DNA of 64,000 bases, taken from the NCBI GenBank assembly GCA_041389025.1, contig JAWKSP010000001.1:256002-320001 (forward strand), read 5' to 3'. Shown here in pieces: positions 25,304 through 25,656 of this stretch. The notes under the pieces are model-generated. The model was not told the origin of the DNA, ran no database searches, and saw nothing but the letters and a program-made list of their open reading frames with translations. This stretch comes from Minisyncoccota bacterium (lineage in GTDB: Bacteria > Patescibacteriota > Minisyncoccia > Phycocordibacterales > UBA918). A program made the position numbers and the translations under genes. How positions within the stretch are numbered: position 1 is the first letter of the stretch; each line of letters starts with the position of its first letter.

Positions 25304-25374
25304 GCGGGTGTAGTTTAGTGGTAAAACGACTGCCTTCCAAGCAGTAGTCGGGAGTTCGATTCTTCTCACCCGCA
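25304..25374 (+). tRNA. tRNA-Gly(TCC), CCA not encoded
   Basis: Acceptor GCGGGTG/CACCCGC, D-arm GTTT-AGTGGTA-AAAC, anticodon arm ACTGC-CTTCCAA-GCAGT (anticodon TCC), T-arm GGGAG-TTCGATT-CTTCT. Confidence 0.8.
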
Positions 25375-25556
25375 CGAGTACAAAAATGAGCGCACGAAAG
25401 TGTGCCATTTTTGTTCGTGCGGGTGAAGTGAGTAAATAGTTTTGCTCACGTGAAGAATCGAAAAGCGGAGCGATGCCGTTTAAGCGAGCGAGCTGGGGTC
25501 GAGAGTACTTAGTAGAATCTGAGCGGAGCGAAAGATTATACTTAGTAACTCGTGAC

Positions 25557-25574
25557 CGATTCTTCTCACCCGAG
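25557..25574 (+). repeat. direct repeat of the tRNA-Gly(TCC) 3' end (att-like)
   Basis: cgattcttctcacccg repeats 25358-25373, with a second degenerate copy cgattcttttcacc at about 25612. The spacer contains GAAGAATCGAA, the reverse complement of the T-arm, and is homologous to the tRNA-Gly(GCC) spacer (GAATCGAA..gcgga.cgatg). Confidence 0.7.
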
Positions 25575-25656
25575 TTACTAAAAGGAAACAAAATAGCATG
25601 GTGACCGTCAGGACGATTCTTTTCACCTTCAACTGTGTGACACTACCATATAACTT

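What the first reader, a model, noticed from the sequence alone, without database searches (positions are those of the whole stretch)
25304..25625. tRNA-Gly(TCC) carries the same architecture: homologous spacer with an inverted copy of its own T-loop, then direct repeats of its 3' end
After the tRNA, a 182-bp spacer contains GAAGAATCGAA, the reverse complement of this tRNA's T-loop region TTCGATTCTTC. It differs from the GCC copy exactly where the two tRNAs differ. It is followed by the same gcgga(g/a)cgatg motif as in the GCC spacer. Then comes cgattcttctcacccg, a repeat of the tRNA 3' end, and a further degenerate copy at about 25612. Two independent tRNA genes therefore carry homologous downstream elements whose internal antisense segment co-varies with the partner tRNA. 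That argues for a family of tRNA-specific elements, or for a functional RNA pairing with the tRNA T-arm, rather than random debris.
Basis: seen in the sequence. Interest (0 to 1): 0.7.

Follow-up and report, generated by a model that had tools for sequence, protein, structure and literature searches.

The report
Miniature cassettes inserted in tRNA genes
Behind this glycine tRNA gene, and behind the other three tRNA genes in the window, sits a gene-less, hairpin-rich DNA cassette of about 150-200 bp that appears to have inserted into the tRNA's T-loop, supplied a new 3' end and terminator, kept an inverted copy of its own target, and pushed the old 3' end downstream; it belongs to a widespread family in Saccharibacteria that I could not find described.

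Summary
GAAGAATCGAA (25452-25462) is the exact reverse complement of the T-loop segment 25355-25365. GCGGAGCGATG follows at 25465-25475. The tRNA 3' end is repeated exactly at 25557-25572 and degenerately at 25614-25629. All of this is far above chance.

It is not special to the two glycine tRNAs. All four tRNAs in the window carry the same layout. So do 19 of 51 tRNAs in related Candidatus Saccharibacteria contigs, while orthologous sites in other relatives are empty.

One unit reads: tRNA 3' end from the T-loop, trailer and terminator, inverted acceptor copy (I-a), small branch hairpin, inverted T-loop copy (I-b), structured core. The next downstream repeat is the displaced old tRNA end.

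- Units form tandem arrays, and the newest unit lies next to the tRNA.
- Two arrays enclose cargo genes.
- The same core types occur at different tRNAs, with inverted and direct segments matched to the local tRNA.
- Hairpins covary heavily, but G-U use shows no strand bias. No promoter lies inside the unit, and the inverted copies lie beyond a terminator.

Best reading: a non-autonomous, tRNA-specific integrative DNA cassette family with a folded attachment site, not a trailer RNA. No recombinase was found. I rate it a new variant of a known kind.

The parts
25304..25375 (+). tRNA-Gly(TCC); CCA is not encoded
   Evidence: ARAGORN; Rfam RF00005, 72.6 bits
25357..25375 (+). D1: the tRNA 3' part from T-loop C56 to the end. 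I infer that the cassette supplied it (attL-like side).
   Evidence: Exact 16-nt repeat with 25557-25572. The element origin of D1 is inferred from the Arg and Gly(GCC) loci and from L028/L017.
25376..25415 (+). Trailer plus intrinsic terminator (hairpin 25390-25405 and T-run). It is the centre of a long palindrome whose arms are 25366-25384 and 25408-25426.
   Evidence: Terminator scan; inverted repeat I1; folds
25416..25428 (+). I-a: CGTGCGGGTGAAG, an inverted copy of the acceptor 3' strand plus the first trailer bases
   Evidence: It co-varies with the tRNA in orthologues.
25429..25448 (+). Small branch hairpin TGAGTAAA-TAGT-TTTGCTCA, between I-a and I-b
   Evidence: In 15 homologous hairpins, 117 of 120 cells are Watson-Crick, with 2-4 pair types at every position.
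25450..25462 (+). I-b: GTGAAGAATCGAA, an inverted copy of the T-loop and T-stem 3' strand.
   Evidence: co-variation
25463..25494 (+). Left part of the core, with the conserved motif GCGGAGCGATG (25465-25475). AGCGGAGCGA recurs at 25522-25531.
   Evidence: (family D4)
25495..25557 (+). Core hairpin B (type 2), with the apical loop GAGCGGAGCGAA at 25521-25532. Its last base is the first base of D2.
   Evidence: It is 87% identical to L028. The same hairpin lies downstream of tRNA-Arg (L024, L025) and tRNA-Gly(GCC) (L014, L037) in relatives.
25557..25572 (+). D2: the displaced former 3' end of the tRNA (attR-like scar)
   Evidence: In relatives the D2 copies decay.
25588..25613 (+). Remnant of the right end of an older unit of core type 2b (ACAAAATAGCATGGTGACCGTCAGGA)
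   Evidence: It matches L020, L024 and L025 type-2b ends.
25614..25629 (+). D3: a degenerate, oldest copy of the tRNA 3' end (CGATTCTTTTCACCTT)
12801..13188 (+). Sister array behind tRNA-Gly(GCC) (12727-12800), two units. I-a 12832-12842; hairpin 12843-12862; I-b 12866-12877; motif 12879-12889; D2 12974-13003. Unit 2: inverted copy 13047-13060; hairpin 13129-13165; degenerate D3 13174-13188.
4951..5138 (+). Sister cassette behind tRNA-Arg(TCG) (4879-4950). Terminator 4956-4988; I-a-like 4993-5006; I-b GACTCGAA 5048-5055; type-1 core with hairpin 5066-5097 and right end 5097-5122; D2 5123-5138.
   Evidence: The type-1 core is shared with tRNA-Gly(TCC) cassettes in L016 and L021.
14440..14589 (-). 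Sister cassette behind tRNA-Pro(TGG) (14590-14661, - strand). Terminator 14550-14585; I-b GGCTGGGATCGAA 14532-14544; hairpin 14483-14529; D2 14440-14465.
   Evidence: It is 86% identical to L001, with two compensatory base-pair changes in the hairpin.

Best explanation
The spacer after tRNA-Gly(TCC) is an array of small, non-coding, non-autonomous integrative DNA cassettes that target the T-loop of tRNA genes in Candidatus Saccharibacteria.

One unit is about 150-200 bp. In order it carries:
- a replacement tRNA 3' end, from the T-loop to the discriminator base;
- a trailer and terminator;
- an inverted copy of that same 3' end, split into I-a and I-b by a small hairpin;
- a core of two hairpins.

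Insertion into the T-loop keeps the tRNA gene whole, because the cassette supplies the new end. The old end is displaced downstream as a direct repeat that then decays. New units enter next to the tRNA, so arrays are oldest at the far end. Units can also carry genes between the terminator and the inverted copy.

Most likely mechanism (inferred, not shown): in single-stranded or extruded form, the inverted copy pairs with the direct copy. This rebuilds a duplex mimic of the tRNA-gene target, flanked by conserved hairpins. That folded structure would be the attachment site used by a recombinase supplied in trans, as with integron attC sites or the folded attP of CTX phage.

Shown: the anatomy, its specificity for tRNAs, co-variation with the tRNA, hairpin covariation, presence/absence polymorphism, tandem arrays, cargo-bearing versions, and modular sharing of cores.

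Inferred: that the unit itself moves, that the crossover lies in the T-loop, that the folded form matters, and that a trans-acting enzyme exists.
For: 1. Specificity and frequency. All 4 tRNAs in the window have an inverted copy followed by a direct copy. Among 51 non-identical Saccharibacteria tRNAs, a direct repeat of 10 nt or more occurs in 23 (0.24% of shuffles, 2% of cross-tRNA controls). An inverted repeat of 9 nt or more occurs in 20, and both occur in 19. None of 14 tRNAs from other loci had both. Sequence similar to the elements is found in the window only behind the four tRNAs.

2. Polymorphism at orthologous sites. tRNA-Gly(TCC) is filled in L016, L018, L020, L021, L028, L034 and L024. 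It is empty in L019 and L027 and partial in L017. Ala, Phe and Gly(GCC) are filled in L004 but empty in L002 and L003.

3. Co-variation. I-a, I-b and the direct copy all follow the tRNA variants in L020/L021, L034 and L035.

4. Replacement of the 3' end and polarity of arrays.
- The second terminator in L028 equals the first terminator in L017.
- L024 has two identical 196-bp units, then a direct copy followed by the ancestral AGCCAAC trailer.
- In the window's tRNA-Arg, the displaced copy keeps the relatives' TCCTGGC, while the functional end is aberrant.
- The window's tRNA-Gly(GCC) carries a C2-A71 mismatch and an encoded CCA, and its end is identical to the downstream repeat. Sister genome L001 does not have this.

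5. Tandem arrays. L004 tRNA-Ala has three 157-bp units.

6. Cargo.
- In L028, two genes lie between direct copy D2 plus terminator and a distal inverted copy-core-direct copy module.
- In L004, a 444-aa ORF lies between direct copy D3 and a distal module plus direct copy D4.
- A homologue of that ORF sits right behind a tRNA-Met cassette in L167.

7. Modularity. The same cores occur at different tRNAs. Left and right modules are reassorted.

8. Structure.
- The small hairpin is 117/120 Watson-Crick with full covariation.
- Hairpin-B stems covary under a conserved loop.
- Units folded as single-stranded DNA circles are 66-75% paired, with z-scores of -3 to -10.

9. DNA rather than RNA. G-U use is equal on both strands. 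There is no internal promoter, and a terminator lies upstream of the inverted copies.

10. Conservation. The core is 80-87% identical between genomes whose four-fold codon sites are saturated at 40% identity. This fits recent spread or constraint.
Against: - No recombinase was found. Pfam scans of about 30 window ORFs gave only an rve DDE transposase at 27839-28714. That is a weak test.
- No free, phage-borne or plasmid-borne copy was found.
- It is unexplained how one core type acquires inverted and direct segments matched to a different tRNA.
- The inverted copy and core of an old unit stay about 80% identical between the window and L001, while neutral sites are saturated. This could mean a function in place rather than mobility.
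- No excision product and no very recent insertion between near-identical genomes was observed.
- Perfect tandem arrays could also arise by unequal crossing-over.
- The window may contain indel errors (the cca gene is frameshifted), so single-base details are soft.
Confidence: 0.58

Rival explanations
1. These are ordinary scars. Conventional integrase-encoding prophages or integrative plasmids integrated into the tRNA T-loop, and later excision or deletion left attL/attR debris. On this view the small units never moved on their own.
For: Direct repeats of a tRNA 3' end that begin in the T-loop are the classic signature of tyrosine-integrase integration (established knowledge; reviewed in PMC9897764). 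Some arrays do enclose genes. The distal repeats decay like attR scars.
Against: More than 20 independent loci have the same compact, gene-free layout, with the terminator directly abutting the inverted copy and no gene remnants. Identical tandem units of 157 and 196 bp are hard to produce by repeated exact deletion. Hairpin covariation and an inverted copy of the target are not features of known duplex attP arms. No integrase was found in the window or related loci.
Confidence: 0.15
2. This is a functional RNA. Read-through transcripts of the tRNA carry an anti-T-arm segment that pairs with the tRNA's T-arm and acceptor strand, in cis or in trans. It would control tRNA folding, processing or stability. 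The downstream tRNA-end copy would act as a competitor or decoy.
For: The antisense segments match the partner tRNA exactly and co-vary with it. The folds are very stable. The conserved loop GAGCGAAGCGAA always lies on the tRNA-sense strand. The inverted copy and core of an old unit are conserved well above the neutral level.
Against: The inverted copies lie beyond an intrinsic terminator and no internal promoter is predicted. G-U pairs make up 5.5% on both strands, against 10.4% versus 5.7% for the tRNAs. In the two covarying hairpins, G-T mismatches are no more frequent than A-C mismatches. There is no Rfam match. Presence/absence polymorphism, arrays, cargo and decaying direct copies are properties of mobile elements. 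I-a pairs with the genomic trailer, not with a mature CCA end.
Confidence: 0.07
3. The cassettes spread by homology, without a dedicated recombinase. Saccharibacteria are naturally transformable. A fragment reading tRNA-unit-displaced end can be pasted into any genome with the same tRNA, using the conserved tRNA body as the left homology arm and the direct repeat as the right arm. The hairpins would protect or fold the incoming single strand.
For: No recombinase was found. Chimeric tRNA ends with mismatches look like conversion tracts. Left and right modules are reassorted. Natural competence of Saccharibacteria is established knowledge; I did not test it here.
Against: This does not explain the inverted target copy, the conserved motifs, the spread of one core type to different tRNA species, or why the direct-repeat boundary is always in the T-loop. 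Right arms of 16-30 nt are very short for RecA-dependent recombination.
Confidence: 0.1
4. This is a local replication artefact. Template switching at the terminator hairpin copied the tRNA 3' end in inverted and then direct orientation, with no element involved.
For: The palindrome formed by the first direct copy, the terminator and I-a is continuous with the terminator stem. L032 tRNA-Pro has only a terminator plus I-a.
Against: This cannot produce conserved cores shared between different tRNAs and between genomes. It cannot produce different terminators after successive direct copies or cargo-bearing units.
Confidence: 0.04

Closest known systems
Integron gene cassettes and their attC sites
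   Same: Cassettes are promoterless and often tiny, and stack in an array at one attachment point with the newest nearest that point. The recombination site is an imperfect palindrome whose structure is conserved far more than its sequence, with inverted core sites (R'' and R') at its two ends. Some cassettes carry one gene and some carry none.
   Different: Here the attachment point is the T-loop of many different tRNA genes, not an attI next to an intI gene. No IntI-type integrase was found. The inverted segments are 11-20 nt copies of the specific target rather than the 7-nt RYYYAAC/GTTRRRY consensus. Each unit carries a replacement gene end and a terminator.
tRNA-gene-targeting integrative elements (tyrosine-integrase prophages, ICEs, genomic islands with T-loop sublocation) and their integrase-less derivatives (cis-mobilisable elements, CIMEs)
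   Same: The element supplies a copy of the tRNA 3' end from the T-loop onwards, so the gene stays intact. The old end becomes a direct repeat. Arrays build up by accretion. Like CIMEs, the units have att sites but no recombination genes.
   Different: Units are only 150-200 bp with no genes at all. They carry an inverted copy of the target and covarying hairpins, which are not known in duplex attP arms. They occupy a large share of the tRNA genes in a very small genome. One core type serves many tRNA species.
CTX-phi type IMEX elements (folded single-stranded attP used by XerCD at dif)
   Same: Two inverted copies of a target-like site, about 60-100 nt apart, can fold into a hairpin that mimics the duplex chromosomal target. 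The integrated forms occur in tandem arrays. No integrase of the element's own is needed.
   Different: The target is a tRNA T-loop, not dif. There are no phage genes. Involvement of Xer recombinases was not tested.
IS200/IS605-derived palindrome-associated elements (PATEs) and REP/BIME repeats
   Same: They are small, non-coding, hairpin-rich and non-autonomous, and act as single-stranded DNA. An internal segment base-pairs with the cleavage or target site.
   Different: Those insert next to 4-5-nt targets and do not duplicate or replace the flanking sequence. Here there is a 16-30-nt direct repeat of the target and exclusive association with tRNA genes. No TnpA or RAYT gene was seen.

Membership tests
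Integron (cassette array with attC sites) | An intI tyrosine-integrase gene with an adjacent attI site and Pc promoter at the head of the array | tested here: not met
   The head of each array is a tRNA gene. No tyrosine recombinase appeared in Pfam scans of window ORFs or in the tblastn against related loci (a weak test).
Integron (cassette array with attC sites) | attC with R'' RYYYAAC and R' GTTRRRY core sites closing an imperfect palindrome | tested here: not met
   The inverted ends exist, but they are copies of the tRNA T-loop (for example ATCGAAC and GTTCGAT). They fail the purine/pyrimidine consensus and extend to 11-20 nt.
Integron (cassette array with attC sites) | A recombination site conserved in structure rather than sequence, with polarised arrays of cassettes | tested here: met
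   Hairpin covariation. Arrays with the oldest, decayed units distal.
tRNA-targeting integrative element (tyrosine integrase, T-loop sublocation) | A direct repeat of the tRNA 3' end that begins in the T-loop and flanks the insert, with the tRNA gene kept intact | tested here: met
   Repeats start at T54-C56 in every case.
tRNA-targeting integrative element (tyrosine integrase, T-loop sublocation) | The element encodes its own integrase next to attP | tested here: not met
   Units are 150-200 bp and non-coding. The overlapping ORFs are spurious: the alignment to L001 contains gaps of 1, 2, 5, 10 and 13 nt, not multiples of 3. The cargo genes seen are a peptidase S51, an AAA kinase and an unknown 444-aa protein.
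CIME / non-autonomous att-flanked element | Flanked by att sites recognised by the integrase of a related autonomous element present in the same host range | not testable with these tools
   No autonomous relative was found in viral, phage or plasmid collections.
CTX-type IMEX (folded ssDNA attP, XerCD) | Two inverted target-like sites that fold into a duplex mimic of the chromosomal site | tested here: met
   The inverted and direct copies pair in single-stranded DNA folds of the circular unit. Spacing between them is 60-125 nt.
CTX-type IMEX (folded ssDNA attP, XerCD) | The target is the chromosomal dif site and recombination is by host XerC/XerD | tested here: not met
   The target is a tRNA T-loop. 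Xer dependence could not be tested.
IS200/IS605 PATE | Insertion 3' of a short (4-5 nt) target without duplication; subterminal hairpins; TnpA (Y1 HUH) supplied in trans | tested here: not met
   Direct repeats of the target of 16-60 nt are present. No HUH transposase appeared in the Pfam scans.
Known structured RNA family (Rfam) | A match to a curated covariance model | tested here: not met
   Only the tRNAs pass the gathering threshold. Relaxed searches give only sub-threshold hairpin-like microRNA hits.

The most novel reading that the evidence does not exclude
Saccharibacteria possess a tRNA-anchored, integron-like gene-capture system. Single-stranded minicircle cassettes carry a built-in duplex mimic of their tRNA target (inverted plus direct copy). 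A host-encoded or still unknown recombinase inserts them into the T-loop. This would continually rewrite tRNA 3' ends and occasionally import cargo genes. It would be a new class of site-specific recombination platform in bacteria with highly reduced genomes.
Probability: 0.25. Interest if true: 0.85.

Novelty: new variant of a known kind. Interest (0 to 1): 0.68.

Why it matters
- If these cassettes are mobile, they are a major and so far apparently unrecognised source of genome change in Saccharibacteria. These genomes are about 1 Mb and are thought to be poor in mobile DNA, yet nearly half of the sampled tRNA genes are occupied.
- The cassettes rewrite the 3' ends and terminators of essential tRNA genes. 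Here this seems to have produced a tRNA-Gly with a C2-A71 mismatch and a tRNA-Arg with a damaged T-stem.
- They mark hot spots where accessory genes enter.
- They imply a recombination activity that has not been identified. That activity could become a site-specific integration tool for Patescibacteria, which have only recently become genetically tractable.
- On the practical side, they break assemblies: contigs end inside them. They also generate spurious ORFs and partial tRNA calls.

Tried and rejected
- **Rfam.** Searches at the gathering threshold and at relaxed E-values gave nothing beyond the tRNAs.
- **Promoters.** Scans found none inside the TCC or GCC arrays. I had noticed a possible weak promoter (TTGCCG, 15-17 nt, GAGAAT) in type-3 units. 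I dropped it because the scan did not report it and the other core types lack a -35 element.
- **Recombinase search.** Pfam on about 30 ORFs and NCBIfam on three proteins found no recombinase. A tblastn with XerD found nothing.
- **HTH protein upstream of tRNA-Gly(GCC).** It is syntenic at both filled and empty sites, so it is not linked to the cassettes. It has no PDB or family match beyond the HTH domain.
- **Search for a free or viral copy.** Four IMG/VR pattern scans were run. The type-1 right end gave 0 hits. The loop 14-mer hit only unrelated phage intergenic hairpins, so the loop motif is a generic stable loop and not diagnostic. The TCC and GCC patterns (inverted copy, gap, direct copy) hit only a conserved coding gene, a tRNA array and one other unrelated stretch. 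blastn against phage and plasmid collections found nothing.
- **IS110 bridge-RNA idea.** Rejected: there are long target duplications, the guide-like segments are 11-20 nt, and there is no recombinase.
- **Group II intron idea** (based on GTGCG at I-a). Rejected: that sequence is simply the complement of the Gly acceptor end and is absent from the Pro cassettes.
- **tRNA-primed reverse transcription.** Rejected: I-a pairs with the genomic trailer, not with a CCA end.
- **Fixed-length target-site duplication by staggered cuts.** Disfavoured: repeat lengths vary from 16 to 60 nt, and the first and second direct copies differ in ways that point to a foreign first copy.
- **Literature.** Five full-text searches found no description of such elements. 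PMC9897764 covers only ordinary att-derived tRNA fragments.
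Full report
**1.

tRNA-Gly(TCC) lies at 25304-25375 (ARAGORN; Rfam 72.6 bits).

- The 11-mer TTCGATTCTTC occurs twice in the 64-kb window: in the T-arm (25355-25365, + strand) and inverted at 25452-25462. Dinucleotide shuffles expect 0.07 matches.
- The 16-mer CGATTCTTCTCACCCG is repeated exactly at 25557-25572, and with three mismatches at 25614-25629.
- GCGGARCGATG occurs only after the two Gly inverted copies.
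- The GCC and TCC inverted copies differ exactly where the two T-stems differ.

**2. The anatomy is richer than reported**

After the tRNA comes a trailer and an intrinsic terminator (hairpin 25390-25405 plus a T-run). Next comes a second inverted segment, I-a (CGTGCGGGTGAAG, 25416-25428), complementary to the acceptor 3' strand. Together with the trailer, I-a extends the terminator into one long palindrome (pair I1).

The remaining parts, in order (coordinates):
- a 20-nt branch hairpin (25429-25448);
- a linker with GCGGAGCGATG;
- a long hairpin B (25495-25557) with the apical loop GAGCGGAGCGAA;
- the direct copy D2;
- the last 26 nt of an older unit of another core type (25588-25613);
- the degenerate copy D3.

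The region is about 55% G+C in a 37% G+C genome.

**3. It is a family, and it is tRNA-specific**

All four tRNAs in the window (Arg-TCG, Gly-GCC, Pro-TGG, Gly-TCC) are followed by an inverted T-loop copy and then a direct copy of their own 3' end. Gly-GCC has two units.

A genome scan with the neighbouring CorA gene identified the organism as Candidatus Saccharibacteria. Its nearest relative, L001, is 81% identical in protein sequence. A metagenome scan with the adjacent protease gene gave 25 more related loci.

Among 51 non-identical tRNAs from these loci:
- 23 have a direct repeat of 10 nt or more within 350 nt (0.24% of shuffles, 2% of cross-tRNA controls);
- 20 have an inverted repeat of 9 nt or more;
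- 19 have both.

None of 14 tRNAs in unrelated loci had both. Distant Saccharibacteria (L003, L004, L006, L167; about 36% CorA identity for the first three) show the same layout at Val, Ala, Phe, Gly and Met tRNAs. Their cores differ but share GGAGCGA-type motifs. In the window, sequence similar to the elements occurs only behind the four tRNAs.

**4. Evidence that it is inserted, mobile-type DNA**

*Empty and filled sites.* Orthologous tRNA-Gly(TCC) sites are filled in L016, L018, L020, L021, L024, L028 and L034. They are empty in L019 and L027 and truncated in L017. Ala, Phe and Gly(GCC) are filled in L004 but empty in L002 and L003.

*Different core types at one tRNA, and one core type at different tRNAs.*
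- Type 1 (ending CCAATTGGGGTACTGAAACTGTAAGT) is at the window's tRNA-Arg and at tRNA-Gly(TCC) in L016 and L021.
- The type-2 hairpin of the window's TCC cassette lies behind tRNA-Arg in L024 and L025 and behind tRNA-Gly(GCC) in L014 and L037.
- Type 2b (ending GACCGTCAGGA) lies behind Gly-TCC, Gly-GCC and Pro.

Where both inverted and direct copies are intact, they match the local tRNA. They follow tRNA sequence variants among orthologues. T-stem CTTC, CCTC and CCCG pair with GAAG, GAGG and CGGG, and the acceptor variants follow likewise.

*Arrays.* L004 tRNA-Ala carries three 157-bp units. L024 carries two identical 196-bp units, and that contig ends inside the repeat.

*Cargo.*
- In L028, two genes (a peptidase S51 and a small ATPase or kinase) lie between direct copy D2 plus terminator and a distal inverted copy-core-direct copy module.
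- In L004, a 444-aa ORF of unknown family is bracketed in the same way.
- A homologue of that ORF sits directly behind a tRNA-Met cassette in another genome.

**5. Polarity and replacement of the tRNA end**

Successive direct copies are usually followed by different terminators (L004 Gly). The terminator after D2 in L028 is the one that directly follows the tRNA in L017. The last direct copy in L024 is followed by the AGCCAAC trailer, which follows the tRNA itself in L001, L016 and L021. So a unit brings its own 3' end and terminator, enters next to the tRNA body and pushes the earlier end outward, where it decays.

Two window tRNAs show the cost.
- In tRNA-Arg, the T-stem 3' strand is aberrant (TCCACGGG), and its Rfam score of 47 bits is the lowest of the four. 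The displaced copy at 5123-5138 keeps the relatives' TCCTGGC.
- tRNA-Gly(GCC) has a C2-A71 mismatch and an encoded CCA, because its last 30 nt are identical to the downstream repeat. Sister genome L001 has the normal end.

The repeat boundary always falls at T54-C56, so the crossover is in the T-loop.

**6. DNA or RNA?**

The hairpins are under strong structural constraint.
- The branch hairpin is Watson-Crick in 117 of 120 cells across 15 copies, with 2-4 pair types at each of its 8 positions.
- Hairpin-B stems differ completely between copies but stay paired under a conserved loop. That loop always lies on the tRNA-sense strand, and 12 of 14 hits lie behind a tRNA.

Against an RNA role:
- Predicted helices use G-U equally on both strands (105 of about 1,900 pairs each). 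The tRNAs in the same data show 10.4% sense against 5.7% antisense.
- In the two hairpin sets, G-T mismatches are no more frequent than A-C mismatches.
- Minimum free energies favour the sense strand in only 15 of 26 elements.
- The inverted copies lie beyond a terminator, no internal promoter is predicted, and no Rfam family matches.

Folded as single-stranded DNA circles, single units are 66-75% paired, with z-scores of -3 to -10. The direct copy pairs with the inverted copies across the terminator, the small hairpin forms a branch, and the core forms two hairpins. This points to a DNA-level, strand-symmetric palindromic structure rather than a trailer RNA. The loop motif also turned up in unrelated phage intergenic hairpins, so it is a generic stable loop and not a signature of the family.

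**7. Conservation**

Between the window and L001, four-fold degenerate sites of CorA are 40% identical, which is saturation. By comparison:
- I-b of GCC unit 1 is identical at 15 of 15 positions;
- the inverted copy and core of unit 2 are about 80% identical;
- the Pro cassette is 86% identical, with two fully compensatory pair changes;
- the displaced end and downstream DNA are at 37%.

Between the window and L028 (proteins about 60% identical), the stretch from I-b to D2 is 87% identical. The trailer, terminator and branch hairpin are unrelated. So the modules are reassorted, and they are either younger than the host split or under constraint. I could not separate these two readings.

**8. 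What moves it?**

I did not find out.
- Pfam scans of about 30 window ORFs gave no tyrosine or serine recombinase and no HUH enzyme, only an rve-type DDE transposase at 27839-28714.
- A tblastn with XerD found nothing in about 400 kb of related loci.
- Scans of viral, phage and plasmid collections found no free copy.

The best-supported mechanism is therefore partly inferred: a non-autonomous cassette whose inverted and direct copies fold into a duplex mimic of the tRNA-gene target, used by a recombinase supplied in trans. Integron attC sites and the folded attP of CTX phage work this way.

The rivals are ordinary integrase scars, spread by homology after natural transformation, an RNA role, and template switching at the terminator. 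They are weighed in the rival explanations. The main unsolved point for every DNA model is how one core type acquires inverted and direct segments matched to a new tRNA.

**9. Comparison with what is known, and verdict**

The direct repeat of a tRNA 3' end that starts in the T-loop is the textbook mark of integration into tRNA genes. These points are not described for that class, and five full-text literature searches found no account of them:
- the size of 150-200 bp;
- the absence of any gene;
- the inverted copy of the target;
- the covarying hairpins;
- the occupation of about 40% of sampled tRNA genes;
- the use of the same cores at many tRNA species.

It fails the defining tests for an integron (no intI or attI, no R''/R' consensus), for IS200/IS605 derivatives (long target repeats) and for CTX-type elements (target is not dif). 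It works most like an integron cassette array anchored on tRNA genes. I rate it a new variant of a known kind, with interest 0.68.

One caveat: the window may contain indel errors, because the cca gene is frameshifted. Single-base details should not be over-read.

Noticed in passing
window 3560-4813 (- strand): The CCA-adding enzyme gene next to tRNA-Arg aligns to an intact homologue (L024) in four pieces across three reading frames. It is therefore a pseudogene or carries assembly indel errors. This is odd, because three of the four tRNA genes here lack an encoded CCA.
   Followed up: partly
window 12727-12800 and 12974-13003: tRNA-Gly(GCC) has a C2-A71 acceptor mismatch (C2-G71 is a glycine identity pair) and an encoded CCA. 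Its last 30 nt are identical to the downstream repeat. The sister genome L001 has the normal ...CCGCAC end without CCA. The tRNA end therefore seems to have been overwritten by recombination with a cassette copy.
   Followed up: partly
window 4879-4950 and 5123-5138: tRNA-Arg(TCG) has an aberrant T-stem 3' strand and the lowest Rfam score of the four tRNAs (47 bits). The displaced downstream copy keeps the sequence found in relatives. The gene may be impaired.
   Followed up: partly
window 12037-12717 (+ strand): A 226-aa protein with an N-terminal HTH domain and an unassigned C-terminal domain ends 10 nt before tRNA-Gly(GCC). It holds that position in all relatives, at filled and empty sites alike. 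A 28%-identical paralogue sits upstream of tRNA-Gly(TCC) in L016. Its function is unknown.
   Followed up: partly
L014 14870-14970 and L017 18214-18290: tRNA-Pro in these relatives is followed by a different insert of about 69 nt. In L014 this is followed by a 32-nt repeat that begins upstream of the T-arm. This is a second, unrelated kind of tRNA-linked insertion.
   Followed up: no
window 26158-27088 and 27839-28714: An EamA-like transporter gene appears split by a stop (26158-26307 and 26309-27088). An rve-family DDE transposase lies 2 kb downstream of the TCC array on the - strand. I saw no link to the cassettes.
   Followed up: no
window 8242-8997, 9134-9973, 29746-30561, 55628-56458: Four TrmB-family winged-helix regulators lie in this one 64-kb window.
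   Followed up: no
L052 6320, L078 1129, L086 418, L156 5906-5937 (IMG/VR contigs): Unrelated phage contigs carry intergenic hairpins with the same apical loop, GAGCGAAGCGAA, next to GCTTCGC- and GCGTAAGC-type mini-hairpins. Among the 14-mer hits, hairpin context was far more frequent than chance. The loop is therefore a generic stable motif.
   Followed up: partly
L024 1-420; L034 8277-8329: Metagenome contigs end inside cassette arrays. L024 begins exactly at the T-loop repeat. These repeats therefore break assemblies.
   Followed up: no
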